From Parcubacteria group bacterium (GTDB lineage Bacteria; Patescibacteriota; Patescibacteriia; UBA2169): DNA of 64,000 nt. A program made the position numbers and the translations under genes. The stretch is taken from positions 221,414-285,413 of the forward strand of contig JACOYR010000001.1 in NCBI GenBank assembly GCA_016181765.1, read 5' to 3'. Of this stretch, positions 26,504-58,610 are shown in pieces. Under the pieces are notes generated by a model. The model did no database searches. It worked only from the letters and a program-made list of their open reading frames with translations, and had not been told where the DNA came from. Positions within the stretch are counted from its first letter, which is position 1, and every line of letters begins with the position of its first letter.

Positions 26504-26505
26504 AA

Positions 26506-34579: not shown

Positions 34580-34591
34580 ATTTTGATGATT

Positions 34592-34674: not shown

Positions 34675-34700
34675 ACAAAAAAACCGCCTTAATGGGCGGA
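34675..34700 (-). terminator. rho-independent terminator of the 34734..34997 gene
   Basis: ccgcc-ttaatg-ggcgg with a 9-nt T-run on the minus strand. Confidence 0.7.
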
Positions 34701-34733
34701 TGGGGGGTATGCGAATATCAAACAGGCGCGTTG

Positions 34734-34997: not shown

Positions 34998-35060
34998 AGC
35001 GTCAATGTTACTGCAACACGCAGTATACCACACCAGCCACGATTGCACAACAAACGCACC

Positions 35061-35705
35061 TTAAAATTCTGCTGACTCACCGGCTTTAAGCGGGGTGAAC
35101 GCAATTCCTGCGTCTGCGAGCATCTTCTGCGGCAGGCCGTGGAACAGCTCAATGATTTCGTCTTTCAAAAACCCATCATGCACGGGAAAGCATTTTTTGG
35201 GTCTGACGTTTTTGGCGTAATCAATGCCCTGGCCTATCATCATCCACGGCCCGCTCACCGGGAGCGCGAGTATGTTGACCGGACGGCCCGGATGCGTGAG
35301 TGAATCTCCGGGATAAAACAAATCACCGCCAATCCAGTAACCCGTATTCTGGGGCATTGCAATTCCCTGGTAAATAGATTCATGTATGCAATCAAACGCC
35401 TCCAGTTCCACGCCTTTGACTGATAGCTTTGATGTGCCCTCAAGCGCCTCATATAACAATCCCGCTTTTGACAACGACTGGCCCGTGCCGCTGTTGGCGT
35501 ACACTTTCGCGTTTGGGTTGTTTGCTAAAATCGTTTTGATGGAATCAGCATGCATGTGGTCCGAGTGGTCGTGCGTGATGAGGATGACGTCAACATTGCT
35601 GACGGATGAGTGTTCGCCAATGGTCCACATGCCCGGATCCGTTAAAATCCGAAGCCCGTTTACTTCTATGATGAGGCAACAGTGCCCGAGTTTGGCGATA
35701 TGCAT
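35061..35705 (-). CDS. MBL-fold metallo-hydrolase
   Basis: ITHDHSDH (HxHxDH) motif. Confidence 0.75.
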   Translation of the reverse strand: MHIAKLGHCCLIIEVNGLRILTDPGMWTIGEHSSVSNVDVILITHDHSDHMHADSIKTILANNPNAKVYANSGTGQSLSKAGLLYEALEGTSKLSVKGVELEAFDCIHESIYQGIAMPQNTGYWIGGDLFYPGDSLTHPGRPVNILALPVSGPWMMIGQGIDYAKNVRPKKCFPVHDGFLKDEIIELFHGLPQKMLADAGIAFTPLKAGESAEF

Positions 35706-35710
35706 ATAAT

Positions 35711-36064
35711 TTAGGCTACGTGGCGCTTAAGCGTGCGCCTGATGGCGCAATAGTCCGGAATTGTTTGCTCCACCAGTTTCCAAAACGCAGGGGAATGATT
35801 CAGCTCTTTGAGATGGCACAGCTCATGCGCCACCACATACTCCGCGTGCGCAAGGGGCAGGAACAGGAGTTTGTAGCTGAAGTTGAGGTTGCCGTCCGCG
35901 GAGCAGCTCCCCCACCGCGTTTGTTGGTTGCGGATGGATACGCGGTTATAGGCAAAGCCGTACTGCCGATTAACGCGCTCAAGCGTTTCGTTGATGAACT
36001 GCCGCGCCTGTTCGCGGTGCTTATGGTAGTGCGCGCGGTCTCTGGACCGTGTGAACCGAGGCAT
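35711..36064 (-). CDS. YgjP/DUF45-family M48-like metallopeptidase (short form, lacks ~50 N-terminal residues of typical members)
   Basis: RVSIRNQQTRWGSCS and VVAHELCHLKELNHSPAFW (HExxH zincin) match YgjP. Confidence 0.6.
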   Translation of the reverse strand: MPRFTRSRDRAHYHKHREQARQFINETLERVNRQYGFAYNRVSIRNQQTRWGSCSADGNLNFSYKLLFLPLAHAEYVVAHELCHLKELNHSPAFWKLVEQTIPDYCAIRRTLKRHVA

Positions 36065-36067
36065 ACG

Positions 36068-36748
36068 CTATGCCACACCCAGGCGCTCAAACAAACACCG
36101 CACAATCTCATCTTTCTTTTGCGCATCAATTTTGCCGGGCACCTCAACCCCGAACACTCTTTTGACCACTCCTTGACGTATCAGCCATGTCTCAAGCGGG
36201 CCCACCGGCGTGCCGTCTGAACCCGTGCGCGGCCGGTACCCGTCAACAAACTCAAAACCGAGGTACTCGTCTTCCGGATCATCAATGCCGGAAAAGAGCT
36301 CAACGCCGCATGAGGTAACCGCATCCCGCATGGCCGAGAGCTCCAAATCCGAAAACGCGCCTGTATCGTACAAATAGAACTGCTCTTGGCTGGGATCCTC
36401 ATGGAAAGAGATGCACGTATCCATCTTGCATTGGTTGAGCAGGGCCATGACTGCCTGCGCCTCCTGGCAATCGGTTCCATCAATGAACTGCCGGTTGATG
36501 TCTTTGTCGCGGTAGTTGGCCCGAGATCGCGAAGCGACCGAGGACGGGCTCACCTCGGGAATGTACAAAAAATCCGGCAATGCCTGTTCCAGTGAGTCAA
36601 TGGCCTTATGCACCGAATCAATCACCTCAAACTCATCCCCGTGCGCGCCGGAGAGCAGTAACAGACCGGGGTTTTCCCCTCGGACATAGTAGGGAAGCTC
36701 AACTGACTTGTGCTTATAGGCGCGCTTTTCCATAGCGTTTGATTGCAT
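36068..36748 (-). CDS. succinylglutamate desuccinylase/aspartoacylase (AstE/AspA, M14-like) family protein
   Basis: SGAHGDE zinc-binding motif near the N-terminus. Confidence 0.55.
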   Translation of the reverse strand: MQSNAMEKRAYKHKSVELPYYVRGENPGLLLLSGAHGDEFEVIDSVHKAIDSLEQALPDFLYIPEVSPSSVASRSRANYRDKDINRQFIDGTDCQEAQAVMALLNQCKMDTCISFHEDPSQEQFYLYDTGAFSDLELSAMRDAVTSCGVELFSGIDDPEDEYLGFEFVDGYRPRTGSDGTPVGPLETWLIRQGVVKRVFGVEVPGKIDAQKKDEIVRCLFERLGVA

Positions 36749-37181
36749 AGTATATCATCAACCCCGCGAAAGCGGCAATCACCATGCTCCCGAGAACATC
36801 AATGCCGTGGTGAACTCCGGCAAGCACGCGCGATGCGCCCGAGACCGCGGTTATGAGCGCGAGCGCGGTACCGAGCTTTTTATTAAACGGAAATACCGCG
36901 GCCGCAATGGCGGCGGCGAACAGCGTATGGTCCGACGGGAAGCCATTGTCCGGCGCATGCGGTATAAGCGGGACAACATCGTTCTGTACGAACGGCCGGG
37001 GATTATAGTAGAAGCGCTGCAGCAGTCGGCCAACCAGGTACGCGGTTGGCAGGAGCATGCCGCCGAACAGCAGCATGCGCTTTTGGACGCTCCGGGGCTG
37101 TGTTGCGAAAAACAACAGCCCGAGCGCGGGAATGAACAAAAAAAGATACGCGCTTCCGAAAATAATCAGCTGGTCTGCCAT
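36714..37181 (-). CDS. PAP2-family phosphatase (membrane)
   Basis: PSDHT and SRV...GVHHGID PAP2 motifs; start MADQLIIF (ATG 37179-37181) overlaps the ATPase stop by 16 nt. Confidence 0.7.
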   Translation of the reverse strand: MADQLIIFGSAYLFLFIPALGLLFFATQPRSVQKRMLLFGGMLLPTAYLVGRLLQRFYYNPRPFVQNDVVPLIPHAPDNGFPSDHTLFAAAIAAAVFPFNKKLGTALALITAVSGASRVLAGVHHGIDVLGSMVIAAFAGLMIYYAIKRYGKARL

Positions 37182-39937
37182 AGGTTGGGCGAGCTGCGGC
37201 GCTGGGCGATAAAGCAGTGTTTCGCAATTTCTATCAACGCGATAACCCACGCGCACGCGAACAGAATGAGCAGCCAGTCCGAAAGCCCGAGCGGAACCGT
37301 GCGCAGAAAGGTTTGGAAAAACGGCGCATAGATGCCGATGAACTGGACCGCGAATCCGGCGCCCACGGCCGCGATGAGCCAACGGTTGGTGAAGAAATCT
37401 GTTTCAAAAATGGAATGCCGCAGGCTCCTCACCGAGAACACGTACAAGAGCGACTCAACCCCGATTGCCGTAAACGCCACCGTGCGCGCCCGGTCCAGGT
37501 CCTTGGTCGTCTTCCAGATGAGGTAGAAGAGCCCCAGGGTCGCAACTGACGTAATGGCGCTGATGAAAAAGATGAGAAACGTGCGCTCAAAATCCAGGAT
37601 CGGCTCATTCCGTTCGCGCGGCGGCTCATCCATGATTTCGGGCTCTTCGGGCTCAAGGGTGAGCGCGAGATCCGGAAACCCGTCCGTCACCAGGTTGATC
37701 CACAAAATCTGGGCCGCGAGAATGGGCAGAGGCCAGCCCGCGAGCATGCCGAACACAATGACCGCCATCTCCGTAAAGCTGTTTGAGAGCAGGTAGAGCG
37801 TAACTTTGCGGATGTTGTCAAAAATCACCCTGCCCTCCCGCACGGCCGCCACAATGGTGGCAAAATTATTGTCCAAGAGCACCAGGTCCGCGGTTTCCTT
37901 GGCGACGTCCGTGCCGCTGCCGAGCGCAACCCCGATGTCCGCTTTCGCGAGCGCGGGCGCGTCGTTGACCCCGTCTCCGGTCATGGCAACAGTCTGCCCG
38001 TTCTTCTGCAGAGCCGCGATGATGCGAAGCTTGTCCGTGGGCGTGGCGCGCGAGAACACTTTGGCTTTTTTTACGAGGCGCGCAAGTTCCGAATCCGAAA
38101 TACTCGCCAGCCGCTCGCCGTCAATCACCTCATCTTCCGCGGGTTTGAATCCGAGCTCGCGGGCGATTGCGAGCGCCGTGTGCCGGTTGTCGCCCGTGAT
38201 GATGATGGTTTGGATGCCAGCCGCGGCCGTGCGCCTGATGGTCTCTTCCGCTTCCGGGCGCAGGGGGTCTTTGATCCCCCAAAATCCGGTAAACACGGCA
38301 GCCGTGTTGTACCGCGGCAGTTCATCAAACGTGGATACAGCCGCCGGAACTGCCTTGTAGGCTCCGGCAAGGAGCCGCAGGCCGTCCCCGGAAAGCTTCT
38401 CGTAGAGCGCGAGCAACGCCTTGCGCTTCCGGGGCGTTATCTTCTTGGCTGATGCTCCGTCCTGGTAGCGCTCGCACATGGAGAGGATCCGCTCGGGAGC
38501 GCCCTTGAGGTACACCAAGCGCTGCTTGCTCGTCCATGCGTTGAGCGTTGCCATGTACTTTTTGCGGGAATCAAACGGAACCTCGTCAAACCGTGGCCGG
38601 GGTTCGTGCAGGTCCGCTTCCTGGAAATCCCCGTCAACCGCGGAAAGCAGGATGGCGCGCTCCGTGGGGCTGCCCACCACGATTTGCTCGCGCAGTTCTT
38701 CCTCTTGGGTCGCCTTCTCGCTCTCCGCGCTTGCGACCACCGCGTTGTTGCAGTACACCGCAATCTGGTTGAGGCGCTTGATCTCAAGCGCGCCGGCCTG
38801 GAGCCGCTTGGGATCAGCCGCTTTCGTGCCGCCCACGCCGTCGTGGTTCTCGGTTTCTGTGTGCACCACGCGCATCTCCCCCACGGTGACGGTGCCGGTT
38901 TTGTCCGCGCAGATGACATTGGTTGATCCGAGCGTTTCCGCGGCAACCAGCTTGCGCACGAGCGACCCCTTCTTGAGGATGCGCTGCATGCCGATGGTCA
39001 AGATGACTGTCACTTCAACCACCAAGCCTTCGGGAATCACGGCAACTGCCACGGCCACGGCAATCACGAACATCTCCGTAAAACTGTACTCATAGGCAAG
39101 CCCCACGCCGAGCAACAAGGCGGAAAGTCCGAGCACCAAGAGGCCAAGCCTGCGGCTGAACGAATCAAAACGCTCCTGCAGCGGAGTGCGCACCTCTTTT
39201 GTTTCTTTGACCAGGGAAGCGATTTTGCCGATTTCAGTCGCTTTGCCGATTGCGGCCACCGCGAACCGACCGTGCCCTTCGGTGACCACGGTTCCCGCAA
39301 ACACCATGTTGTGCTGGTCCGCGAGCGAGAGCTCGCCCGCGAGTGCGCGGTCAACTTTTTCAACCGCCTCGCTCTCCCCGGTTAACGCGGCTTCGCTTAT
39401 TTTGAGGTGCTCGGCGGACAGGAGCCTGCCGTCCGCGGTAATTTTATCCCCTGCCGAGAGCACCACAATGTCCCCGGGCACGAGCTCGGCCGAGAAAATT
39501 TTGCGCTCCTGGCTGTCGCGGATCACCCACACCTCGTGCGTGACGATTTTTTTAAGGCTTGCCAAAGCGCGCTGCGCTTTGTACTCCTGGAAAAATCCGA
39601 CAATGACGTTTATGGCGACTGCCGCAAAAATAACGTACGAATCAATGCGGTCTCCGAGGGCCAGGCTCGCCGCGGCCGCCGCGAGCAGGATGTACGTAAG
39701 CGAGCTCTTGAACTGCCGGATAAAAACCACGAGGAGCGGCACAGGCGGCTCCTCCGGAAGCGCGTTCTCTCCGTGCTTTTCTTGCCGCTCTAAAACCTGC
39801 TTTTGGGTGAGCCCGTGCTTTGCGGAACCGAGCTTGTCCAGGGCGCTCTCAATGCCAAGGCAGTACCACTCCTCCTTGTGGCGGGGGGGTGGCACTATTT
39901 TTACGTCCTCAATCTTTTTGATTTCTTTTTCCGGCAT
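37166..39937 (-). CDS. P-type cation-transporting ATPase (P2-type, Ca2+/Mg2+-like)
   Basis: ICADKTGTVT phosphorylation motif, TGDGVNDAPAL, about 10 TM helices, 923 aa. Confidence 0.85.
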   Translation of the reverse strand: MPEKEIKKIEDVKIVPPPRHKEEWYCLGIESALDKLGSAKHGLTQKQVLERQEKHGENALPEEPPVPLLVVFIRQFKSSLTYILLAAAAASLALGDRIDSYVIFAAVAINVIVGFFQEYKAQRALASLKKIVTHEVWVIRDSQERKIFSAELVPGDIVVLSAGDKITADGRLLSAEHLKISEAALTGESEAVEKVDRALAGELSLADQHNMVFAGTVVTEGHGRFAVAAIGKATEIGKIASLVKETKEVRTPLQERFDSFSRRLGLLVLGLSALLLGVGLAYEYSFTEMFVIAVAVAVAVIPEGLVVEVTVILTIGMQRILKKGSLVRKLVAAETLGSTNVICADKTGTVTVGEMRVVHTETENHDGVGGTKAADPKRLQAGALEIKRLNQIAVYCNNAVVASAESEKATQEEELREQIVVGSPTERAILLSAVDGDFQEADLHEPRPRFDEVPFDSRKKYMATLNAWTSKQRLVYLKGAPERILSMCERYQDGASAKKITPRKRKALLALYEKLSGDGLRLLAGAYKAVPAAVSTFDELPRYNTAAVFTGFWGIKDPLRPEAEETIRRTAAAGIQTIIITGDNRHTALAIARELGFKPAEDEVIDGERLASISDSELARLVKKAKVFSRATPTDKLRIIAALQKNGQTVAMTGDGVNDAPALAKADIGVALGSGTDVAKETADLVLLDNNFATIVAAVREGRVIFDNIRKVTLYLLSNSFTEMAVIVFGMLAGWPLPILAAQILWINLVTDGFPDLALTLEPEEPEIMDEPPRERNEPILDFERTFLIFFISAITSVATLGLFYLIWKTTKDLDRARTVAFTAIGVESLLYVFSVRSLRHSIFETDFFTNRWLIAAVGAGFAVQFIGIYAPFFQTFLRTVPLGLSDWLLILFACAWVIALIEIAKHCFIAQRRSSPNLWQTS

Positions 39938-40078
39938 CTGTATGTTCTCTTTTTTTACAAATTTTTGCTTGGGCTAAGCGAAGTGAAGTTAAGCGAAAAT
40001 TTGAGAGGGGCAACAAAACGGAACCTGGAATGGCCTCGCGCAGCGAGGGCATGAAAGGTGGAGTTTTGTATGACCCGA

Positions 40079-40154
40079 TGGTGCGCCCAGAGGGATTCGG
40101 ACCCCCGACCATCTCCTTAAAAGGGAGCTGCTCTACCAACTGAGCTATGGGCGC
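40079..40154 (-). tRNA. tRNA-Lys (anticodon TTT)
   Basis: Acceptor GCGCCCA/TGGGCGC, anticodon loop CTTTTAA, T-arm GGGGG-TCCGAAT-CCCTC, CCA encoded. Confidence 0.75.
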
Positions 40155-45013: not shown

Positions 45014-45029
45014 AGGGTAGAATCACGGT

Positions 45030-45341
45030 ATGTTCAACAAACTCAAACAATTCAAAGAGCTCCGAAGCCAGGCTAAAACTCTCCAAACCGCGCTCAAAGA
45101 AGAAACCGTCACCTGCGAAAAAGGCGGAGTCACCATCACCATGGACGGCAACCAGGACATCACGGCCGTTCTGGTGCGGCCTGATTTGCTCTCTTTGGGC
45201 CGGAAGCGCGATCTGGAGAATGCCATCAGAGATGCGAATGCCGCTGCCATAGAAAAGACCAAGCGCATCATGGCAAGAAAAATGCAGTCCATGGGAGGGT
45301 TTGACCAGTTTGGCTTGGGCGACAAAAAAATAGGGACATGA
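45030..45341 (+). CDS. ybaB: YbaB/EbfC-family nucleoid-associated protein
   Basis: 103 aa; MFNKLKQFKELRSQAKTLQ start typical of the family. Confidence 0.8.
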   Translation: MFNKLKQFKELRSQAKTLQTALKEETVTCEKGGVTITMDGNQDITAVLVRPDLLSLGRKRDLENAIRDANAAAIEKTKRIMARKMQSMGGFDQFGLGDKKIGT

Positions 45342-45354
45342 CCCATTTTCATCC

Positions 45355-45960
45355 ATGAGTTCCCTTCCCCCGTCAATCCAGAACCTGGTGGGCCACTTTA
45401 CGACCCTGCCGGGCATCGGGCCCAAGACCGCTGAAAAGCTGGTGTTTTTTTTATTGCGCACTCCGGCAAAAGAGCTGCACGATTTTGGAGAGGCGCTCGC
45501 GAGCATTGCCGACAACTTAAGCCTTTGCCGCGCGTGCCAGAACTTTACGGATGCGGAACTCTGCGCCATCTGCGCAAATCCCCGGCGGGACCAGGGAACC
45601 GTCTGCGTGGTTGCCGACCCCTTGGACTTGATCGCGCTTGAAGAAGCGCACGCGTTCCGCGGAGTCTACCATGTGCTCGGGCACAACATCAACCCCCTGG
45701 AAGGCATCACCCCCAATGACATTAGAATCCGCGAGCTGGTTCTGCGCATAGAAAAAGCAAACCCCCCGATTACCGAAGTGATTCTCGGGCTTGATGCGAA
45801 CAATGAGGGCGAAACCACGTCCTTGTACCTGGCTCGGCTTTTGAAACAGTACCCCGTAAAGGTAACCCGCATCGGCAAGGGATTGCCCCAGGGAAGCGAC
45901 ATGGAGTATGCGGACTCCGTGACGTTGAGCAACGCGCTTCTCGGCCGGCGCGAAATCTAA
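45355..45960 (+). CDS. recR: recombination protein RecR
   Basis: LPGIGPKTAEKL HhH motif, C4 zinc finger CRACQNFTDAELCAIC, and a Toprim domain. Confidence 0.9.
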   Translation: MSSLPPSIQNLVGHFTTLPGIGPKTAEKLVFFLLRTPAKELHDFGEALASIADNLSLCRACQNFTDAELCAICANPRRDQGTVCVVADPLDLIALEEAHAFRGVYHVLGHNINPLEGITPNDIRIRELVLRIEKANPPITEVILGLDANNEGETTSLYLARLLKQYPVKVTRIGKGLPQGSDMEYADSVTLSNALLGRREI

Positions 45961-48306: not shown

Positions 48307-48313
48307 CCCCTCG

Positions 48314-48377
48314 CCCCCTCCTGAATACAGGAGGGGGAATATTATATGGTCGAGCCCGCTCCTGAATACAGGAGGGG
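48314..48377. repeat. two copies of the CTCCTGAATACAGGAG palindrome (ruvX leader / map trailer)
   Basis: ccccctcc-tgaataca-ggaggggg at 48314-48337 and ctcc-tgaataca-ggagggg at 48359-48377; the first puts GGAGGGGG 13 nt upstream of the ruvX ATG. Confidence 0.7.
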
Positions 48378-48380
48378 AGT

Positions 48381-49136
48381 TTACTGGGTTAATATTCGCG
48401 GCCCGTTCGTGGCGGCCACGACCGTGTGCTCAAAGTGCGCGGCGCGCGCGCCATCAGCAGTCACCACGCCCCAGCCGTCATCCGCTGTTTTGACGTCTGC
48501 GCCTCCAATGGCAATCATGGGCTCAATGGCAAGCACTGCCCCTGCCATGATTTTTTCGCCGCTTCCGGCTTTTCCAAAATTGGGAATACGCGGCTCTTCG
48601 TGCACGCTGTAGCCCACGGCATGGCCGGTGAGCTTGCGGATGACCCCATATCCAAGCTTTTCCGCATACTCCTGGACCGCGTGCCCGATATCGCCGAGAT
48701 GGTTGCCCGCTACAGCCTGGGCAATGCCGCGTTCCAAACACTCGCGCGTTACCGCGAGCAGGCGCTCGTCTTCTTCCGAAATATCGCCAATGGGAACGGT
48801 TACGGCATGGTCCGTGTACAAACCTTTGTACTCTAGACCGAGGTCCAGGCCGATCAAATCCCCTTCTCTGAATGCCAAATCCTTGTGCGGAATGCCGTGC
48901 ACCAGCATGTCGTTCGGGGAAACGCACAACACGTTCGGGAACTCTTCGCCAGGCTTGCCAAATCCCTTGAATGACGGGCTGCCCCCTGCTTTGCGGATTT
49001 CCTCTTCTGCCAACGCGTCCAAATCAGATGCGTTGGCGCCCGCAACGCACCGCGCAACCAAATCTTTCATAATGCAGGCAAGGATATGCCCGCCTTCCGC
49101 CAGCAGTTCTATTTCTTTGGCGGTTTTCGGCTTCAT
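48381..49136 (-). CDS. map: type I methionine aminopeptidase
   Basis: Metal ligands in conserved context (D...D...H...E...E), 251 aa. Confidence 0.9.
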   Translation of the reverse strand: MKPKTAKEIELLAEGGHILACIMKDLVARCVAGANASDLDALAEEEIRKAGGSPSFKGFGKPGEEFPNVLCVSPNDMLVHGIPHKDLAFREGDLIGLDLGLEYKGLYTDHAVTVPIGDISEEDERLLAVTRECLERGIAQAVAGNHLGDIGHAVQEYAEKLGYGVIRKLTGHAVGYSVHEEPRIPNFGKAGSGEKIMAGAVLAIEPMIAIGGADVKTADDGWGVVTADGARAAHFEHTVVAATNGPRILTQ

Positions 49137-49777
49137 GCAAATATCTCCCCCACTGATTTTTCAACTTCATCAATGGACGGCGTGCCGTCTATGCGGTGGA
49201 GAATGCCTTGCGCTTCGTAGCGATCAAGCATGGGTTTGGTATCTTTGTGGTACCAGTCAAGGCGCTTCTGGATCCCCGCGGGCGTATCATCTGCACGCTG
49301 CACAAGTTTCGTGTTGCAATCATCACAGAGCTCATCGCTCTTTGGCGGATTGGTAAGCATGTTATAGACCCTCCCGTCTTTCGGGCACTCTCTGCGGGCG
49401 GAAAGCCTTCTGATTGACTCCTGGTCCGGAATGTCAATCAAAATAACGTGCGAGGGCGCGGCAACCGCGTCAGAAGCCTCTGCCTGGCCCTGGCTCCGGG
49501 GAAATCCGTCCATCACAAAACCTCCGGATGAGGAGAGCGCCTGTTCCATCTTTGCTTTCATGAACGCGCTGATGTCCTGGTCCGCCAGATGGCCGCCGGA
49601 ATTGACGGTTTCTGCAAACTGATTGCCGCGCGCGCTTTTGGACGCGATTTCATCGCGCAAGAGCTTGCCCGTCTCAAGATACGGGATTTCAAGCTTTTGC
49701 GCTAGCCGCTTGCCCTGGGTTCCCTTGCCCGACCCTTGGGGCCCGAGCAGGATGATGACTGGTTTGTTTTTTTGCAT
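49133..49777 (-). CDS. adk: adenylate kinase
   Basis: GPQGSGKGTQ P-loop and a zinc lid with CPKDGRVYN...CDDC. Confidence 0.9.
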   Translation of the reverse strand: MQKNKPVIILLGPQGSGKGTQGKRLAQKLEIPYLETGKLLRDEIASKSARGNQFAETVNSGGHLADQDISAFMKAKMEQALSSSGGFVMDGFPRSQGQAEASDAVAAPSHVILIDIPDQESIRRLSARRECPKDGRVYNMLTNPPKSDELCDDCNTKLVQRADDTPAGIQKRLDWYHKDTKPMLDRYEAQGILHRIDGTPSIDEVEKSVGEIFA

Positions 49778-49837
49778 GAACGTTAGAAGCGTTCGTAGTC
49801 CCTCATGATGAGCTGGGAATTGATTTGCTTGACCGTC

Positions 49838-51010
49838 TCAATCACCACAGACACCACGATCAAAAGAGAGGTGCCGCCGATGACCAAATTCCGCGAACAA
49901 GATGCGGTTTGAAACCTGGGAAAGGTAGCGGCTGGTTTCGTGCCCGGGCCGAATCCCCGGGATAAACCCGCCCTGGCGCTGGAGGTTTTCGGCAATCTGA
50001 TCCGGCTTGAAAATGACCGCCGTGTAAAAGTAGGTGAATCCGAACACCAGCAAAAAGTACACCACCGCGTACACTATGCCGTTGGGATTGAACAACTCAA
50101 TCACCAGGTTCGCGGCCTGCCGCAGGAGCGCAACCGATGACTCCGAAAAAAACTGGGCGACAAGAGGCGGGAACAGCACAATGGAAATCGCGAAGATGAT
50201 GGGAATCACGCCTGCCTGGTTCACGCGCAAGGGCAGGTGGCTGTGCACACCCCCGCCGGATGCGCCTCCGCGCGCAAACTTGGCGTAGGTCACCGGAATG
50301 TTGCGCTGGCCTTCGGTGATGAACACCACGCCCGCGACTGTCGCGAGCGCGATAATCACAAACAGGATGACGTTGATGAGCTGGGACGCGTCGTAGGTTG
50401 AAAACACCCGCAAGAGCGCTGTGGGCAGCCCGGCAACAATGCCCGCGAAAATGAGGAGCGAGATGCCGTTGCCCACCTTGCGTTCGCTCGCGAGCTCCCC
50501 GAGCCACATCAAAAACAAGGTGCCTGCAGTCACCACCGCCATCACCATAGCCATCTGGGCAAAAGAAATGGAGCCCAAGAGGGACGCGCCAGCGGAGGTG
50601 CCCGCGCGCTGCAGGAACACGATGGTGCCGTACGCCTGGATCAGGGCAAAGGGAACCGTGGCAAGCCTGGTCCACTGGCCGATTTTCTGCCTTCCGGCCT
50701 CGCTCTCCTTTTGCATCTCCTCAAGCTGGGGCACGATCATGCCGAGGAGCTGGAAGATGATGGATGAGGTGATGTACGGCCCCACGCCGAGCATGACCAC
50801 GGAAAAGTTCTCCAAGCCGCCTCCGGTGAGGATGTTGAGGAGCCCGAGAATCTGGTTGGAATTAAAAAAAGCCTGCAGCCCGGAAACGTCAACCCCGGGG
50901 ACCGGGATGTGCGCGAGCACGCGGAAGATGACAAAGACGCCGAGCACAAACAGTATATCATTCCTGATATCCCGCGTGGCTACGATCTGTTTGAGCTTCT
51001 GTACAAACAT
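49838..51010 (-). CDS. secY: preprotein translocase SecY (3' end disrupted: frameshift and missing TM10)
   Basis: Canonical SecY through GGFIPGIRPGHETSRYLSQVSNRI, then an abnormal LFAEFGHRRHLSFDRGVCGD*. The conserved C-terminus GGTSLLIVVSVVIETVKQINSQLIMRDYERF is in another frame (ORF 49783..49995). Confidence 0.8.
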   Translation of the reverse strand: MFVQKLKQIVATRDIRNDILFVLGVFVIFRVLAHIPVPGVDVSGLQAFFNSNQILGLLNILTGGGLENFSVVMLGVGPYITSSIIFQLLGMIVPQLEEMQKESEAGRQKIGQWTRLATVPFALIQAYGTIVFLQRAGTSAGASLLGSISFAQMAMVMAVVTAGTLFLMWLGELASERKVGNGISLLIFAGIVAGLPTALLRVFSTYDASQLINVILFVIIALATVAGVVFITEGQRNIPVTYAKFARGGASGGGVHSHLPLRVNQAGVIPIIFAISIVLFPPLVAQFFSESSVALLRQAANLVIELFNPNGIVYAVVYFLLVFGFTYFYTAVIFKPDQIAENLQRQGGFIPGIRPGHETSRYLSQVSNRILFAEFGHRRHLSFDRGVCGD

Positions 51011-51013
51011 GGG

Positions 51014-51472
51014 TTACTTACGCGCGATAGTGACGCTTCCGCCCGCCTTTTCAATGGCCGCGCGCGCGGACCGCGATACGTAGTGCACGGTAACGCTAAG
51101 CTTCTTTTCCAGTGTACCATTTCCGAGCACCTTTACGCCACCCGGAGTCCGGCGCACCACGCCGCGGCTTACCAGGGATTTCTGGCTGACGGTTTCGCCG
51201 TCCTTAAAGCGTAGGGAGAGCTGTGAGAGGTTGACAATCGCAATTTCGGGCGAGAAACGCTTAAAACCCCGCAGCTTGGGCGTGCGGATCAAAAACTGCT
51301 GGAACGCGCTGCGCCGCTTGATGCCCCGCGTCCCGCCCGAACGCGCGGTCTGGCCCTTTAAGCCTCGGGCCGAATACGTGCCCTTGCCCGAAGCATTGCC
51401 GCGGCCAACGCGCTTTTTGCGCTTCTTCTGTCCAGCCGGGCGCGGCAGGTTGTGGAGAGAAAGTTCTGCCAT
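51014..51472 (-). CDS. rplO: 50S ribosomal protein L15
   Basis: KRVGRGNASGKGTYSARG motif. Confidence 0.9.
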   Translation of the reverse strand: MAELSLHNLPRPAGQKKRKKRVGRGNASGKGTYSARGLKGQTARSGGTRGIKRRSAFQQFLIRTPKLRGFKRFSPEIAIVNLSQLSLRFKDGETVSQKSLVSRGVVRRTPGGVKVLGNGTLEKKLSVTVHYVSRSARAAIEKAGGSVTIARK

Positions 51473-51475
51473 ATG

Positions 51476-52069
51476 CTATGCTGTTCCTTTTTCTTCTGTC
51501 GGCTCTTCGGATCCCTCCCCCGGCTTGGCCTCCTGCTTTAGAGCGGTTTTTCGGGCCCGCGGCTTCCGCAGCCGTCCGAGCGCATCCATCAGGGTCTGGG
51601 CGTTATTCACCTTATTGTTCGTCCCCATGATCTTGGCCACTACGTCGCGGACTCCGGCCAACTCAAAAATCTGGCGGACCACGCTGCCCGCAATCACTCC
51701 TGTTCCGGGCGGGGCCGGCTTCAGGAAAAGCTGGGAACTGCGGTCCTTGATGCGGATTTCGTGCGGAATGGTTCCGGTGTCCGTGGTCTCAACCCGCACT
51801 AAGTGCTTTTTGGCGTCATTGGCCGCCTTGCTGATGGCAAGCTGCACGTCCGCCCCCTTTGCGATGCCCACGCCAACTTTGCCCTTCCGGTCGCCAATCA
51901 CGATGCACGCCCGAAAGCGCATGCGTTTGCCGCCTGCCATAACGCGCGTGACGCGCGCCAAATCCAGAATGACCTGGTCAAACTCATCACGGGCCTGGTC
52001 TTTGCGCGGTGAGCGCGGACCCCCTCTCCTTGAGCGCTGTGGTCTCTCTTGTGCCATAGTGTTATACAA
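51476..52069 (-). CDS. rpsE: 30S ribosomal protein S5
   Basis: dsRBD and S5 C-domain (GTGVIAG); directly abuts rplO with no rpmD between them. Confidence 0.9.
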   Translation of the reverse strand: MYNTMAQERPQRSRRGGPRSPRKDQARDEFDQVILDLARVTRVMAGGKRMRFRACIVIGDRKGKVGVGIAKGADVQLAISKAANDAKKHLVRVETTDTGTIPHEIRIKDRSSQLFLKPAPPGTGVIAGSVVRQIFELAGVRDVVAKIMGTNNKVNNAQTLMDALGRLRKPRARKTALKQEAKPGEGSEEPTEEKGTA

Positions 52070-52406
52070 TTACTCCTGCCGCGCGCAGTGCCTCGGTAAA
52101 CGCTTTCACGCGGCCGTGGTACTTTTTGCTGCCGCGGTCAAGCGCTGCCTGTTTGATTCCCTCGGCAAGGGCTTTTTTGCCCAGCGCCTCTCCCAAGAGA
52201 GAAGCGCGCTCGGTTTTGGTTCCCGAAAAGCCTTTATCGCGGCCGGAAACGAGGGTTGTGCCTTTTGCATCGTCAATAAACTGGACAAACATGCCGGACG
52301 CGGAAAGCGCAAGCGAAACGCGGATGCGCGCGCTCCGGCCGCCCAAACGGCTGCGGACGCGGCGGGCGCGGCGCGTGGCGTTCAGTTGTTTTTTAGTCGC
52401 GTGCAT
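52062..52406 (-). CDS. rplR: 50S ribosomal protein L18
   Basis: RARRVRSRL ... IDDAKGTTLVS. Confidence 0.9.
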   Translation of the reverse strand: MHATKKQLNATRRARRVRSRLGGRSARIRVSLALSASGMFVQFIDDAKGTTLVSGRDKGFSGTKTERASLLGEALGKKALAEGIKQAALDRGSKKYHGRVKAFTEALRAAGVIV

Positions 52407-52407
52407 A

Positions 52408-52956
52408 TTATCCTTCTGATCCCTTCATCACCTTGCCCTCCTTGCGGCGGATGACTTCGTCTGCGTACTTAATGCCCTTGCCTTTGTACGGCTCGGGTTT
52501 TTTAATTTTTCTGATGCTGGCGGCTGTCTCGCCCAGAAGTTCCTTGTGGATGCCGGAAAGCGTAATCGCATTGCCTTCCACTCGCGCCTGGATGCCTTCC
52601 GGAATCTCAAACTCAACCGGGTGGGAAAACCCCACGTTCAACACCAAGAGGTTCCCTTTAAGCTGGACCTTAAACCCAATTCCGTTCACCTCAAGTTTTT
52701 TCTCGTACCCATCCGTAACTCCGGTAACGGCGTTCGCAACCAGGCTGCGCGCAAGCCCCCAAAACGCGGCTTGGCGGCCGTCCTCGGGATTGGGAACCGA
52801 AACGTGCAAGGCGCCCTCCCGCTCTTCTACTTTTGCCTTGGGCGGAAGCGCTACCGAGAGCGTGCCTCTGGGGCCCGCGACGGTAACCGAATCGCGGTGC
52901 AGGGCGCTGGTCACGCCCGGGGGCAGTACAATGGGTTGTTTGCCGATTCTTGACAT
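52408..52956 (-). CDS. rplF: 50S ribosomal protein L6
   Basis: MSRIGKQPIVLPPGV start. Confidence 0.9.
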   Translation of the reverse strand: MSRIGKQPIVLPPGVTSALHRDSVTVAGPRGTLSVALPPKAKVEEREGALHVSVPNPEDGRQAAFWGLARSLVANAVTGVTDGYEKKLEVNGIGFKVQLKGNLLVLNVGFSHPVEFEIPEGIQARVEGNAITLSGIHKELLGETAASIRKIKKPEPYKGKGIKYADEVIRRKEGKVMKGSEG

Positions 52957-52963
52957 ACTCGTA

Positions 52964-53362
52964 TTAGTAAATCTCGCACAACACTTCTCCGCCGAGACCG
53001 GCCCGCTTGGCTTCTCTGCTGGTCATAAGCCCCCGGGGAGTGGAAATGATTGCAATGCCGTACCCGGAGAGCACCACGGGCAGTTTGTCGGACTGTGCGT
53101 ACACCCGAAGTCCGGGTTTGCTTATGCGGACCAAGCGCTCAAGCGCGGATTTTCCTTCCTTATCGTACGCAAGGCTGATGCTGATGGCTGGCTTGCCGGC
53201 GCTATCCGCGGCCTCGGTAACCGCGCCAACGTACTTTTCGCGCGAGAGCAGCTGCGCCAACCTGAACTTGAGCTTGGAAAACGGAACAACCACGGCCTCG
53301 TGCCGGGCGCGCGTTGCGTTCCGTATTCGGGTTAACATGTCTGCGATTGGATCAGTCATCAT
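52964..53362 (-). CDS. rpsH: 30S ribosomal protein S8
   Basis: MTDPIADMLTRIRNA start. Confidence 0.9.
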   Translation of the reverse strand: MMTDPIADMLTRIRNATRARHEAVVVPFSKLKFRLAQLLSREKYVGAVTEAADSAGKPAISISLAYDKEGKSALERLVRISKPGLRVYAQSDKLPVVLSGYGIAIISTPRGLMTSREAKRAGLGGEVLCEIY

Positions 53363-53392
53363 ATGATTATATGAATATCGGAGTGAGGTTCC

Positions 53393-53578
53393 CTACCAGC
53401 TTGATTTGCGCACACCAGGGATCTCTCCGTTCCGCGCAAGCTCGCGGAAGCAGATCCGGCAGAGGTCAAAATCACGCATGTACCCCCGGTTCCTGCCGCA
53501 CTTCCAACACCTCCGAATCTTCCGGGTGGAAAACTTCGGGGAGCGGGATGCTTTTACTTTTAATGCGGTTCGTGCCAT
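53393..53578 (-). CDS. rpsZ: 30S ribosomal protein S14, type Z (zinc-binding)
   Basis: [48 protein letters not shown]; 61 aa with a CxxC...CxxC zinc motif. Confidence 0.9.
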
Positions 53579-53603
53579 ATGGGTACCTCTGGTAATAGTG
53601 TGG

Positions 53604-54140
53604 TTACTTTTTGAATGGAAATCCGAGCGCCTTAAGGAGGGTAAGCCCGTCGTGGTCGTTTGCGGCGCTCGTGACCACTGTAATTTCAATTCCGTGCAGC
53701 TTTGCGATATCATCCCCGGCAACCTCCGGAAACACGTTGTGCTCGGAAAACCCAACGGTGAAGTTCCCGTGCCCGTCAAACCCCTTGGTGGAGAGCCCGC
53801 TGAAATCGCGCACGCGCGGCAAGGTCACGTGGAGAAGGCGGTCCAAGAAATCAATGGCGCGCGTGCCGCGCAGCGTGACCTTCCCTCCCACCACCTGGCC
53901 TTCCCTGATTTTAAAATTTGAAATGGAGAGCCGGGCCCGCGTGGCAATGGCGCGCTGGCCCGTGATGCGCGAGAGCGTGTCCATAATCTTTGCTTCGTCA
54001 ACCGCCCCACCCCTCGAGACACGGCTGTTTATCACCACTTTCTCAATGCGCGGAGCGGCGTGGATGTTGTGCGCGCCAAACAGCTCTTTCCGGTTGGGAA
54101 GCACGCTCTTTTGGTAGGTTGCGGCAATGGAGGTGAACAT
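53604..54140 (-). CDS. rplE: 50S ribosomal protein L5
   Basis: Conserved L5 core. Confidence 0.9.
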
Positions 54141-54146
54141 AGGGGG

Positions 54147-54470
54147 TTACAGGGCTGCTTTGCACTTTTTGCACGCGCGCATTTTTGCCGCGGGCGATGC
54201 GGTTGAAGTAGTTCGGGCGCTCGCCCCGACACGGGTGGCTTTTCCGCACTGCGGGCACACGAGCATGACGTTTGACGCTTCAATCGGGGAAGAAAATTCA
54301 ATCTTCTGGCCCGCTACCCCGCGCTTATTGGAACGCAAGTGCTTGGTGAGCACGTTAACGCCAAGAACCGACACGCGGTTGAGCGCGGGCAGAACCTGCA
54401 GAACTTTTCCCGACTTCCCGCGGTCTTTGCCTGCAATCACTTTAATAGTATCGCCTTTCTTGATCTTCAT
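54147..54470 (-). CDS. rplX: 50S ribosomal protein L24 with C-terminal zinc-ribbon-like extension
   Basis: MKIKKGDTIKVIAGKDRGKSGKV KOW start, then an unusual tail CPQCGK...CKKCK. Confidence 0.85.
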   Translation of the reverse strand: MKIKKGDTIKVIAGKDRGKSGKVLQVLPALNRVSVLGVNVLTKHLRSNKRGVAGQKIEFSSPIEASNVMLVCPQCGKATRVGASARTTSTASPAAKMRACKKCKAAL

Positions 54471-54494
54471 AGTTGATGCCAGCGGAAAGCGGCG

Positions 54495-54869
54495 CTAAAG
54501 CACTTCCGGCGCCAGTGAAATAATTTTAGTAAACCCTTTTTGGCGCAATTCCCGCGCGACCGGCCCGAAAATGCGGGTGCCCCGCGGCTCTTTTGATTTC
54601 TTATCCGCCAAAATCACGACCGCGTTTTCATCAAACCGAACGTACGATCCGTCAGCCCGGCGGAGTTCTTTTTTGCTGCGGACCAGGACCCCGGTCACCA
54701 CGTCGCCCTTTTTTACCATTGAGTGGGGCTGCGCTTCTTTAACCACCAAGGTCATGACATCCCCGATGCGGGCGTACCGCTTGCGGTTTCCGCCGAGCAC
54801 GGTGATACACCGGAGCTTTTTCGCGCCGGTATTGTCCGCTGAATGCGCCATGGTCATAAACTGGATCAT
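54495..54869 (-). CDS. rplN: 50S ribosomal protein L14
   Basis: MIQ...[17 protein letters not shown]. Confidence 0.9.
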
Positions 54870-55135
54870 AAGGTACTCCCTTCCTTTGCAATAACGCGCC
54901 AGCGCTTTGTCTTGGACAGGGGCCTGGTCTCTTCTATGGTGACCAGGGTACCGGCCGCGAGCACCGCGCCCCGCCAGTCGCAGATGTAGTGCTTGCTTGT
55001 GGTGTAGCGCTTATGGTACTGGGGATGGGTTTTCACGCGGTTCACGACGACGACAACCGTATGCTGCATCTTGGTGGATGCAACAATTCCGTTCAGGCGG
55101 CGTTTGCGGGTAATCTTTTGCGTAGTCTCTTCCAT
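54866..55135 (-). CDS. rpsQ: 30S ribosomal protein S17
   Basis: [18 protein letters not shown]-fold. Confidence 0.9.
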
Positions 55136-55157
55136 AGGGAAATATTATTCTTTCGGC

Positions 55158-55385
55158 TTATTCTTTCGGCACCTCGGGAGTATGCGGCGAACCATCAGTA
55201 TGCACTAATTGGGAGAGCCGTGTCAAGATGCGGCTTGCATCGCTCTTCGCTTGCCGAATCAGGTGCACCTGCTTGAGGCTGCCGGCGTGCGCCTTAAAGC
55301 GCATATCAACCAATCGCGCCCGTGTTTCGGACAAATCATGGAGAAGCTCTTCTTTTGGCTTGTTCTTTAGTTCGGCCCACTTCAT
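55158..55385 (-). CDS. rpmC: 50S ribosomal protein L29 (with C-terminal extension)
   Basis: MKWAELKNKPKEELLHDLSETRARL start. Confidence 0.85.
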   Translation of the reverse strand: MKWAELKNKPKEELLHDLSETRARLVDMRFKAHAGSLKQVHLIRQAKSDASRILTRLSQLVHTDGSPHTPEVPKE

Positions 55386-55398
55386 ATTATTCTTCTGC

Positions 55399-55809
55399 TT
55401 ATTCTTCTGCCTCAACAAATCGGGTCCGGAGAGGAAGCTTGTGGGAAGCGAGGATCATGGCCTTTTGCGCGATTTCGCGGCTCACTCCATCCATTTCAAA
55501 CAGCACGGTGCCGCGCTTAACCGGAGAAACGTAGCGGTCAACCGCGCCCTTGCCCGCGCCCATGGGCACCTCGGCCCCCTTTGCGGTAACCGGCTTATCC
55601 GGGAAAATCCTGATCCAAATTTTTCCGCCGCGGGCAACGTAGCGCGTCATGGCGCGGCGGGCAGCCTCAATCTGCCGGCTGGAAACCCATGCAGACGTAA
55701 CCGCTCGCAACCCGTACGAACCGAACGAGAGCTCAATCTTGCGCACCGCAGCCCCGCGTAGCCTGCGTTTCTGGGATTTTCGGTATTTTACCTTTCTTGG
55801 CACCAACAT
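55399..55809 (-). CDS. rplP: 50S ribosomal protein L16
   Basis: MLVPRKVKYRKSQKRR start. Confidence 0.9.
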   Translation of the reverse strand: MLVPRKVKYRKSQKRRLRGAAVRKIELSFGSYGLRAVTSAWVSSRQIEAARRAMTRYVARGGKIWIRIFPDKPVTAKGAEVPMGAGKGAVDRYVSPVKRGTVLFEMDGVSREIAQKAMILASHKLPLRTRFVEAEE

Positions 55810-55810
55810 A

Positions 55811-56584
55811 TTATTCCTCTGATTCTGGCTCTAATGATTCTGATTCTAATCCCGATTCTGATTCAGCCTTCTTATCGGTTATCTTCTTGATTTGCCTTAA
55901 AATGGTATCCGTGCCCCCGCTTGCGGCGGCCTTGTCTTCGGGAGCGAGCACCTCGCCTTTGTATATCCATACGGTAACGCCGATGGCCCCATAGGTGGTG
56001 GCTGCCGTGGCCTGGGCGTAATCAATGTTTGCGCGCAGGGTGTGCAGCGGAACAGACCCCCAGCCGATGGTTTCGTTGCGCGCAATTTCCGCCCCGTTCA
56101 AACGGCCTTTCACGCGGATCTTGACGCCTTTTGCGCCCGCTTTCTTTACGTTCTCCAAGGACTGCTTGCACGCTCTGCGGTATGCGATGCGGCGCTCAAG
56201 GTCAGCGGCGATGTTTTGCGCGATGACCGCGGCCGAAAGAGAACTCTGGCGCACCTCGTGGATGTTGATTTTTACCTTGCCCGATCCAAGCACCAGGTGC
56301 TGTTCAAGCTCTTTTTTGAGCGTTTCCGCGCCCTCTCCCCCGCGGCCTATCACCATGCCCGGCTTGGCGGTAGAGATGTTGACAATGATCTCGGGACCCT
56401 TGCCGCTCCGCTCCACGCCGATCAGGTCAACGCGCGCATCCTTAAGCTTTTTGGACAAAAATTGCCGGATCTGGATGTCCTGTTTCAGGGTAGCCCTGAA
56501 CTTATTGCGCGGCGCAAACCACTTGGACTGCCAGTCCTCAATGATGCCCAGGCGATGATTTTTCGGATGAATCTTTTGTCCCAT
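55811..56584 (-). CDS. rpsC: 30S ribosomal protein S3 with acidic repetitive C-terminal tail
   Basis: MGQKIHPKNHRLGII start. The tail ESESGLESESLEPESEE is encoded by the tandem gattctgattctaat DNA repeat at 55821-55868. The ORF extension to 56686 is rejected. Confidence 0.9.
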   Translation of the reverse strand: MGQKIHPKNHRLGIIEDWQSKWFAPRNKFRATLKQDIQIRQFLSKKLKDARVDLIGVERSGKGPEIIVNISTAKPGMVIGRGGEGAETLKKELEQHLVLGSGKVKINIHEVRQSSLSAAVIAQNIAADLERRIAYRRACKQSLENVKKAGAKGVKIRVKGRLNGAEIARNETIGWGSVPLHTLRANIDYAQATAATTYGAIGVTVWIYKGEVLAPEDKAAASGGTDTILRQIKKITDKKAESESGLESESLEPESEE

Positions 56585-56592
56585 ATGAGTGC

Positions 56593-56940
56593 TTACTTCA
56601 ATTTTTTCTTCTCTCCCACCATAATGGTGATGTGGCTCGTGCGCTTCATAATCTGGCTCGCTCTGCCGAACGCGCGCGGCATCCACCGCTTCAAGGTAGG
56701 CCCCCCATCAACAAATGCCCGGGTGACCACTAAATCATCAACATTCATCTTATTGTTATTTTTGGCATTGGCGACTGCGCTGTTCAACACCTTGAGCACC
56801 GTACCGGCGCTGCGCTTCGGGAGTGACTTAAGCTGGTTTTGGGCTTCGGCAATGCTCAAATTTTTAAGCAAGCCAACCACGAGCCTTACCTTGCGGGGAG
56901 CAATTCGCTGGAACTTTGCTTGTGCTTTAACTTCTGCCAT
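56593..56940 (-). CDS. rplV: 50S ribosomal protein L22
   Basis: Conserved L22 fold, 115 aa. Confidence 0.9.
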   Translation of the reverse strand: MAEVKAQAKFQRIAPRKVRLVVGLLKNLSIAEAQNQLKSLPKRSAGTVLKVLNSAVANAKNNNKMNVDDLVVTRAFVDGGPTLKRWMPRAFGRASQIMKRTSHITIMVGEKKKLK

Positions 56941-56955
56941 ACAAGTGCAATAGCC

Positions 56956-57273
56956 TTACGCTTTTGCTGCGGGAGCCGGGGCCGCCTTCTGTGCGGCAGC
57001 TTGTTCCTGCTCTTTCTGCATGCGGCCGCCGTGTTTGGTAAACTTGCGCGTGGGTGAAAACTCGCCCAGCTTATGGCCGACCATGTTCTCAACCACGACA
57101 ACCGGAACGTGCGCTCTGCCGTTGTGCACCCCAAAGGTGCGGCCCACCATGTCCGGGGTAATGGTCGCCCGCCGCGCCCAGGTGATAATAACCGCCTTTT
57201 TGTCGGCTGCTGCGAGTACTTTCTTTATGAGGCGTTCATCTATGTATGGCCCCTTTTTTGCGCTTCTTCCCAT
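56956..57273 (-). CDS. rpsS: 30S ribosomal protein S19 (C-terminal Ala/Gln-rich extension)
   Basis: [15 protein letters not shown] start. Confidence 0.9.
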
Positions 57274-57285
57274 ATGCTGCTGTTA

Positions 57286-58122
57286 TTATTTCTTGCGTCT
57301 GCGTATGATAACCGCGTTGCTCGCCTTGTGCTTCTTGCGCGTTGGCACGCCGCGGGCCGGCTTGCCCCACGCGGTCTTGGCGCGCTTCATACCGATCGGC
57401 GAGCGGCCTTCTCCGCCGCCGTGCGGGTGGTCCACGACGTTCATGGCTTTTCCGCGCACCCGCGGCCGCACGCCGCGGTGGCGCATTCTGCCCGCTTTGC
57501 CGAGCCGCACCAGATTCCACTCGCTGTTGCCCACCTGGCCGATGGTCGCAAGGCAGTCGCCGCTGAATATGCGCACCTCTCCGCTCGGCATTTTAATCTG
57601 CACGCGGTTGCCTTCCGTGGAGAGCACGGTGGCGCTTGAGCCGGCCGAACGCGCTATGGTCGCGGCGCGCTCGGGAGAGAGCTCTATGTTGCAGATAGTA
57701 ATGCCTGCCGGAATATAGCGCAAGGCCATACGGTTGCCGGGTTTGATTTCAAGCTGTTTGCCGCGGCTCGCCGTGAGCTGGTCGCCGACGGCGAGCTTAT
57801 CCACGGCAAGCGTATACGCCCGGGATTTGTCTTCGTACTCAAGGAGGGCAATGGCCGCGCTCCGGTTGGGATCGTACTGGATGCCCACCACGGTTCCCGG
57901 ACGCTCGGTAACGGGGTTCACAAAATCAACCATGCGGTACTTGCGCTTGTGGCCCCCTCCTTTGTGGCGCACCGTGATGCGCCCGCTCGCATTGCGGCCG
58001 GCGTGGATGGCCCGCCTCGCAAGCAGGCTGCGTTCCGGCTTTTGTATGCCTTCCTGCGCGTGCTTCAAAACGCTTGAGTGGCGCCTGCTCGGAGTAGTTG
58101 GTTTGTAACGCTTAAGTGGCAT
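57286..58122 (-). CDS. rplB: 50S ribosomal protein L2
   Basis: MPLKRYKPTTPSRRH start (ATG 58120-58122); GGGHKRKYR motif. Confidence 0.9.
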   Translation of the reverse strand: MPLKRYKPTTPSRRHSSVLKHAQEGIQKPERSLLARRAIHAGRNASGRITVRHKGGGHKRKYRMVDFVNPVTERPGTVVGIQYDPNRSAAIALLEYEDKSRAYTLAVDKLAVGDQLTASRGKQLEIKPGNRMALRYIPAGITICNIELSPERAATIARSAGSSATVLSTEGNRVQIKMPSGEVRIFSGDCLATIGQVGNSEWNLVRLGKAGRMRHRGVRPRVRGKAMNVVDHPHGGGEGRSPIGMKRAKTAWGKPARGVPTRKKHKASNAVIIRRRKK

Positions 58123-58127
58123 AATAT

Positions 58128-58610
58128 TTACACTCCCTCGTAGACTGCTATGGTGCTTCCCTTTGGAACGCGGATGTATGCTTTTTTCCACGCTGATTTG
58201 GCGCCCGGGATCCTCCGAAAGTACGTGGCGCGCGCTCCTACGTTCGCAATCTGGATGCTTTCCGGGCGAACGCCGTACATCTTGGTAAACGCTTTCTTGA
58301 TCTCAATCTTATTGGCGCCTGGGTGCACTGAAAACGCATAGGTATCGTGCGAGCCTGCGGCGGCTGTTTTCTCGGAAACAAGAGGCTTTACTATGATGCC
58401 AAAACCCGCTTCAAAATTCGTCTTTTCATGGCCGGATTTTTCATGGCCTGGTTTGACCGCAGGTGCATGGGGCCGGGCTGTTTTCTTCGGAAGCTTGGGC
58501 TCCTCGCGGGCTGCCTGCACTTTCTGCTGGGCTTCCGCCTCTTTCTGCGCCGATTTGCGGGGCGCTTTGGTATCGCTTTCTGCGAATGGATTTTTCAAAA
58601 AATTCCACAT
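58128..58610 (-). CDS. rplW: 50S ribosomal protein L23 with ~65-aa Lys/Ala-rich N-terminal extension
   Basis: Core IIVKPLVSEKT...; no internal start, so the extension is likely real. Confidence 0.8.
   Translation of the reverse strand: MWNFLKNPFAESDTKAPRKSAQKEAEAQQKVQAAREEPKLPKKTARPHAPAVKPGHEKSGHEKTNFEAGFGIIVKPLVSEKTAAAGSHDTYAFSVHPGANKIEIKKAFTKMYGVRPESIQIANVGARATYFRRIPGAKSAWKKAYIRVPKGSTIAVYEGV

What the first reader, a model, noticed from the sequence alone, without database searches (positions are those of the whole stretch)
49783..49995. secY is disrupted at its 3' end: conserved C-terminus in a different frame and TM10 missing
The main ORF matches SecY up to ...GIRPGHETSRYLSQVSNRI, then reads LFAEFGHRRHLSFDRGVCGD*. 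The strongly conserved SecY tail GGTSLLIVVSVVIETVKQINSQLIMRDYERF is encoded 8 codons further on in the +1 frame. In no frame is there the ~30-residue hydrophobic TM10 that normally separates these two motifs. So there is both a frame change and an apparent ~80-90-nt deletion. secY is essential and sits inside an otherwise pristine ribosomal operon. This is therefore either an assembly or collapse artefact, a second intact secY elsewhere, or a genuinely unusual SecY.
Basis: seen in the sequence. Interest (0 to 1): 0.6.

Follow-up and report, generated by a model that had tools for sequence, protein, structure and literature searches.

The report
secY broken by 62-base assembly gap
The essential secretion-channel gene secY is broken in this window by a missing 62-base stretch, but an independent assembly of the same bacterial population has those 62 bases and an intact gene, so the break is most likely an assembly error.

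Summary
secY (minus strand, 51010..49783) reads correctly to residue 373, runs into 17 junk codons and a stop, and its conserved C-terminus lies in another frame. The lesion is a single 62-nt deletion between window 49891 and 49890. It removes codons 374-394, which are helix TM9 and the following loop, not TM10. This shifts TM10 (GGTSLLIVV...) and the tail out of frame.

A public Logan contig from run SRR12113431 (10,082 nt) is 100% identical to window 58329..48310 except that it holds these 62 nt. It encodes a normal 429-aa SecY. Contigs from three further runs match 15 kb more of the window with no difference. The 120 listed protein homologues, bar three shorter (partial) entries, and all 80 related genomic loci are full-length across this segment. 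No public gene product carries the frameshifted tail. No repeat, hairpin or slippery site brackets the breakpoints.

The most likely cause is a local assembly error in a Patescibacteria MAG. A rarer possibility is a non-viable minority allele picked up by the assembler. The lesion is not a lineage trait, recoding or an unusual SecY. Read mapping would settle artefact versus minority allele. Interest is low.

The parts
49838..51010 (-). Truncated secY ORF of 390 aa. Residues 1-373 are authentic SecY (TM1-TM8 and the C5 loop with GIRPG). Residues 374-390 are out-of-frame junk, followed by a stop.
   Evidence: PF00344, 306.9 bits, profile 1-267 of 306. (100% identity to P0001 residues 1-373). (only 8 hydrophobic helices remain in frame).
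49890..49891 (-). Deletion junction. 62 nt (GCGCGCTCTTCCTCGGGGCCATCGCGATTCTGCCCATCATCCTCCAGAATTTTACGGGCACG, placement ambiguous by 1 nt) are absent between these two bases. They encode residues 374-394, GALFLGAIAILPIILQNFTGT, which are TM9 and the TM9-TM10 turn.
   Evidence: removing L001 bases 8440-8501 (or 8439-8500; the breakpoint is ambiguous by 1 nt) reproduces window 58329..48310 exactly.
49838..49891 (-). Frameshifted junk tail of the long ORF (EFGHRRHLSFDRGVCGD plus stop).
   Evidence: No public protein carries this tail.
49783..49890 (-). Authentic SecY residues 395-429 plus stop (NLVIGGTSLLIVVSVVIETVKQINSQLIMRDYERF). This is TM10, with the pore-ring Ile, and the C-terminal tail. It is now out of frame with the rest of the gene.
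   Evidence: One search aligns it to T. thermophilus SecY, and one search gives Ile403 in TM10 as a pore-ring residue.
49783..49995 (-). This is a mechanical 70-aa ORF from an internal TTG. Only its last 35 codons are real SecY sequence; the first 35 are an out-of-frame reading of the C5 loop region.
   Evidence: PF00344, only 16.5 bits, profile 278-306.
51014..51472 (-). rplO (L15), the gene immediately upstream. Intact.
   Evidence: PF00828; identical product in three Logan runs.
49133..49777 (-). adk, immediately downstream. Intact.
   Evidence: PF00406.
48381..49136 (-). map (methionine aminopeptidase). Intact.
   Evidence: PF00557.

Best explanation
The break is a local assembly or consensus error in a metagenome-assembled Patescibacteria (Parcubacteria-type) genome. 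62 nt inside secY were dropped from the consensus. This deletes TM9 (codons 374-394) and puts TM10 and the tail out of frame. The organism itself encodes an ordinary, intact 429-aa, 10-helix SecY in the usual rplO-secY-adk-map position.

Shown: the deletion and its exact boundaries; an intact allele in an independently assembled, otherwise identical sequence; and no relative or public gene product with the lesion. Inferred: that the join arose in assembly or scaffolding rather than in cells.
For: 1. Logan contig L001 (run SRR12113431, 10,082 nt) equals window 58329..48310 at 100% identity apart from the extra 62 nt. It encodes the 429-aa P0001.
2. Logan contigs from runs SRR12113431, -424, -430 and -390 match window 32304-40135, 6912-11705, 21247-23929 and 50488-51571 with 0 mismatches and 0 gaps. 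Over about 25.3 kb compared, the 62-nt deletion is the only difference.
3. All but three of the 120 best protein hits are 415-436 aa (three are shorter, partial entries), and 80 related genomic loci match residues about 1-429 as one piece. The TM9 residues G, A, F, L, I, A and P are nearly invariant.
4. The truncated 390-aa product is not on record in 153 billion gene positions. No partial product has the frameshifted tail.
5. The breakpoints share only 1 nt. No direct repeat or hairpin brackets them (fold z-score 0.43). This is not what replication slippage would leave.
6. Local assembly errors are frequent in MAGs. Thirteen were found in one 1.13-Mb CPR genome, and they damage protein-coding genes (PMC7111523).
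7. The operon shows strain microdiversity in the same run series. There is a variant cluster in rpsE, and two contigs end at the same base inside secY. This is the usual setting for local mis-joins (inference).
Against: The reads could not be examined, so lack of read support for the junction is inferred and not shown. A pure de Bruijn graph assembler needs junction k-mers from some read, so a chimeric read or a rare real allele may lie behind the join. The window's own source assembly was not found in any searchable collection, so its assembler and any gap-closing history are unknown. Intactness of secY was seen in only one run (SRR12113431).
Confidence: 0.7

Rival explanations
1. The deletion is a real allele. 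Some cells or DNA molecules in the population carry a 62-bp secY deletion, a null and probably lethal or dead-end mutation, and the assembler followed that path instead of the intact one.
For: The junction needs some sequence support in k-mer-based assemblers (general knowledge). The run series shows microdiversity in this operon. The intact allele was demonstrated in only one run.
Against: SecY is essential, and no second copy is in the window. The product would lose TM9, the TM10 pore-ring residue and the C-terminal tail. There is zero divergence from intact-allele contigs over 25 kb. There is no microhomology at the breakpoints. No public gene product carries the lesion.
Confidence: 0.2
2. 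This secY is a genuine pseudogene, and a second intact secY elsewhere in the genome does the work.
For: It cannot be excluded for the unseen part of the genome.
Against: There is no second SecY-like sequence in the 64-kb window. The broken copy sits in the canonical rplO-secY-adk-map position and is nucleotide-identical to an intact copy in the same population, so there has been no pseudogene decay. Every related locus fetched has its intact secY in this position.
Confidence: 0.04
3. The lesion is a functional oddity. Either a programmed frameshift at the junction gives a SecY lacking TM9, or SecY is split into an 8-helix protein and a separately translated TM10 fragment.
For: None beyond the fact that TM10 remains open in another frame, within a mechanical ORF that begins at an internal TTG.
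Against: Reaching the TM10 frame needs a +1 shift at GCG-GAA-TTT-GGT, which has no slippery or stall motif (sequence). No relative shares the arrangement. Losing one helix would invert the topology of TM10 and the C-terminal tail (established SecY topology). An intact allele exists in the same population.
Confidence: 0.01

Closest known systems
Local assembly errors in metagenome-assembled genomes (Chen, Anantharaman, Shaiber, Eren and Banfield 2020, Genome Res; PMC7111523)
   Same: A short stretch of consensus inside a protein-coding gene of a CPR/Patescibacteria MAG is wrong while the flanks are perfect. The reported rate, 13 errors in 1.13 Mb, makes one error in 64 kb unremarkable.
   Different: The defining criterion is a consensus with no perfectly matching read. 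That could not be tested here. The evidence is indirect, from disagreement with an independent assembly.
Canonical bacterial SecY (PF00344), e.g. Thermus thermophilus 5AWW or Geobacillus 5EUL
   Same: The intact allele (P0001, 429 aa) aligns end to end with solved SecY chains. It has 10 hydrophobic helices, the GIRPG C5 loop, the TM10 GGTSLLIVV motif with the pore-ring Ile, and the spc-operon position.
   Different: The window copy has TM9 deleted and TM10 plus the tail out of frame, so it cannot form the C-terminal half of the channel.
Programmed ribosomal frameshifting genes (prfB +1, dnaX -1)
   Same: Two consecutive pieces of one protein lie in different frames.
   Different: There is no slippery or stall motif. 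Relatives do not conserve the shift. 62 nt of coding sequence are physically absent, so frameshifting could not restore TM9.

Membership tests
SecY / PF00344 | Significant match to the SecY profile | tested here: met
   306.9 bits against a cut-off of 32.2, but only profile positions 1-267 of 306 are in the main frame. E = 1e-82 to solved SecY chains.
SecY / PF00344 | Ten transmembrane helices in one polypeptide (two five-helix halves) | tested here: not met
   the window product has 8 hydrophobic helices; TM9 is deleted and TM10 is out of frame. The intact allele P0001 has all 10.
SecY / PF00344 | Pore-ring residue on TM10 in frame with the rest | tested here: not met
   Ile405 of P0001 aligns to T. 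thermophilus Ile403, a pore-ring residue. In the window it is encoded at 49783-49890 in a different frame.
SecY / PF00344 | Position at the end of the spc ribosomal-protein operon (rplO-secY-adk-map) | tested here: met
   L15 upstream, adenylate kinase and methionine aminopeptidase downstream.
Local assembly error in a MAG | Differs from an independent assembly of the same population only at this spot | tested here: met
   about 25.3 kb compared, 0 mismatches, and the single 62-nt gap.
Local assembly error in a MAG | Consensus at the join lacks perfect support by any read | not testable with these tools
Programmed frameshift / recoding | Frameshift site conserved among relatives, with a slippery or stall motif | tested here: not met
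   all relatives have a single ORF; there is no XXXYYYZ heptamer or stop/rare-codon stall at GCGGAATTTGG.
Replication-slippage deletion (real mutation) | Direct repeats or microhomology at both breakpoints | tested here: not met
   only 1 nt is shared. The nearest direct repeat (CGGGCACGAA, spacing 110) does not match the 62-nt deletion.

The most novel reading that the evidence does not exclude
The 62-bp deletion is a genuine secY-null allele present at appreciable frequency in a natural Patescibacteria population. That would imply these episymbionts can carry a broken essential translocon gene for some time, for example through several genome copies per cell or by persisting as non-growing cells.
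Probability: 0.05. Interest if true: 0.35.

Novelty: not a real feature. Interest (0 to 1): 0.07.

Why it matters
The main value is quality control. Annotation of this genome would report secY as a pseudogene or as missing. That would lower completeness estimates and could wrongly suggest loss of the Sec translocon in a CPR bacterium. The correct sequence, 62 nt restored to give a 429-aa SecY, can be taken from the independent contig. There is no new biology unless read mapping shows that the deletion is a real, frequent allele.

Tried and rejected
1. A second secY in the window. tblastn with the intact protein finds only the two pieces of this gene.
2. Relocation of the missing segment. The 62-mer is absent from the window at up to 3 mismatches.
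3. A repeat- or hairpin-mediated deletion or collapse. No bracketing repeat was found, and the fold is no better than shuffles.
4. Finding the window's source record. The species is absent from genome contigs, where the best SecY match is 90% identical. Both flank patterns are absent from metagenome contigs. Window proteins occur only on short Logan contigs. Two window proteins are not on record at all.
5. Identifying the project. 'SRR12113431' is in no searchable paper.
6. Public gene products with the frameshifted tail. The 390-aa product is not on record. A 51-aa tail query gave no candidates, but it also missed the intact protein, so this result is uninformative. With a 161-aa query no hit covered more than 89%, so none has the tail. 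That search did not return P0001 either, so its power is limited.
7. Other frameshifted genes near secY. Stop-free ORFs of 11 related loci were compared with the window. Only secY is consistently split. The other split hits were antisense shadow ORFs of a GC-rich genome, for example 45026-45956, which contains stops in that frame.
8. Stripped scaffold gaps. The window contains no N. Removal of Ns before the window was made cannot be excluded.

Full report
**What is in the window.** secY lies on the minus strand between rplO (51472..51014) and adk (49777..49133), followed by map.
- The long ORF 51010..49838 (390 aa) matches Pfam SecY at 306.9 bits, but only over profile positions 1-267 of 306. 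It matches solved SecY chains up to ...SQVSNRIL.
- After residue 373 it reads EFGHRRHLSFDRGVCGD and stops.
- The conserved ...NLVIGGTSLLIVVSVVIETVKQINSQLIMRDYERF is encoded at 49890..49783 in another frame.

**Exact nature of the lesion.**
- The best protein hit (P0001, 429 aa, 100% identical over the first 373 residues) comes from Logan contig L001 of run SRR12113431.
- L001 (10,082 nt) aligns to window 58329..48310 at 100% identity in two blocks separated by 62 nt that the window lacks. Removing L001 8440-8501 (1-nt ambiguity) reproduces the window exactly.
- The missing bases are GCGCGCTCTTCCTCGGGGCCATCGCGATTCTGCCCATCATCCTCCAGAATTTTACGGGCACG.
- The deletion starts after the first base of codon 374 and ends with codon 394. 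It removes GALFLGAIAILPIILQNFTGT and shifts the frame.
Its size is 62 nt, not 80-90 nt.

**Which helix is missing.**
- A hydropathy scan of the intact protein gives ten helices. The ninth (370-388) is the deleted one, and the tenth (396-414) is the GGTSLLIVV segment.
- In the alignment to Thermus thermophilus SecY (5AWW), Ile405 pairs with Ile403. PMC8612361 describes Ile403 as the TM10 pore-ring residue.
- So TM9 and the short outer turn are deleted, and TM10 and the C-terminal tail are out of frame.
- The in-frame product keeps only TM1-TM8.

**Is it a trait of the organism?** No.
- All but three of the 120 best homologues are 415-436 aa; the three shorter ones are partial entries.
- The 80 related loci from species-representative genomes all match residues about 1-429 as a single piece.
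- TM9 positions are nearly invariant in a 15-sequence alignment.
- Logan contigs from four runs of the same series match the window perfectly: L082 at 32304-40135, L083 at 6912-11705, L086 and L087 at 21247-23929, and L085 at 50488-51571.
- Across about 25.3 kb of independent sequence from the same population, the only difference from the window is this 62-nt gap.
- The truncated 390-aa product is not on record anywhere. No partial product carries the frameshifted tail, although that search had limited power. The shorter tail query was uninformative.

**How the gap probably arose.**
- The breakpoints share 1 nt. No direct repeat or hairpin brackets them. The 62-mer has not moved elsewhere in the window.
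- This argues against replication slippage and against repeat collapse.
- Local assembly errors that damage genes are well documented in MAGs. One curated 1.13-Mb CPR genome had 13 of them, recognisable as consensus with no perfectly matching read (PMC7111523). One error in 64 kb is in line with that rate.
- The same operon shows strain microdiversity in the run series. L084 has a cluster of 3 substitutions and 2 compensating indels in rpsE (window about 51575-51598). L084 and L085, from different runs, end at the same base (50488) inside secY. Such heterogeneity is a typical cause of local mis-joins. This link is an inference.
- I could not reach reads or the source assembly. A real minority deletion allele or a chimeric read followed by the assembler therefore remains possible.

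**Rival readings.**
- *A compensating second secY.* None is in the window. The broken copy is base-for-base identical to an intact one, so it shows no pseudogene decay.
- *Recoding.* The shift needed is +1 at GCG GAA TTT GGT, with no slippery or stall motif. The 62 nt are physically absent, no relative shares the arrangement, and a nine-helix product would invert TM10 and the tail.
- *A split SecY.* Nothing supports this.

**Verdict.** A real but non-representative allele stands at about 0.2, and everything else is below 0.1. The organism has an ordinary SecY. The finding matters for annotation and completeness scoring only. Read mapping across 49891|49890 is the decisive test.

Noticed in passing
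window 50488 (inside secY, codon 174/175); loci L084 and L085: Logan contigs from two different runs (SRR12113422 and SRR12113390) both end at exactly this base inside secY. This suggests a graph branch, such as a strain variant, just downstream in those samples.
   Followed up: partly
window 51575-51598 (3' part of rpsE); L084 positions 901-925: The contig from run SRR12113422 differs from the window by 3 substitutions and two compensating 1-nt indels within about 24 nt. The rest of its 2 kb is identical. This is a small population variant that changes a few S5 residues.
   Followed up: partly
window 8104-10617 (-) and 7058-7891 (-): An 837-aa ORF has no Pfam hit on record. Just downstream of it, on the same strand, is a 256/277-aa gene with a weak AbiEii (nucleotidyltransferase toxin) hit. 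Both are identical in a Logan contig from SRR12113424.
   Followed up: no
window 53393-53578 (-): A 61-aa zinc-type ribosomal protein S14 (CxxC...CxxC) sits between rplE and rpsH. The gene caller behind the Logan annotation left it uncalled. The operon is complete here.
   Followed up: partly
whole window, e.g. 51231-52454 (+) and 45026-45956 (-): There are many long antisense 'shadow' ORFs, up to 407 aa, opposite real genes in this genome of about 56% GC. They give false split hits in cross-genome ORF comparisons and could be mistaken for genes or frameshifts.
   Followed up: partly
window 23868-27663 and 40079-40154: Five tRNA genes (Trp-CCA, Thr-TGT, Tyr-GTA, Thr-GGT, Lys-TTT). There are no other Rfam matches at gathering thresholds.
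   Followed up: yes
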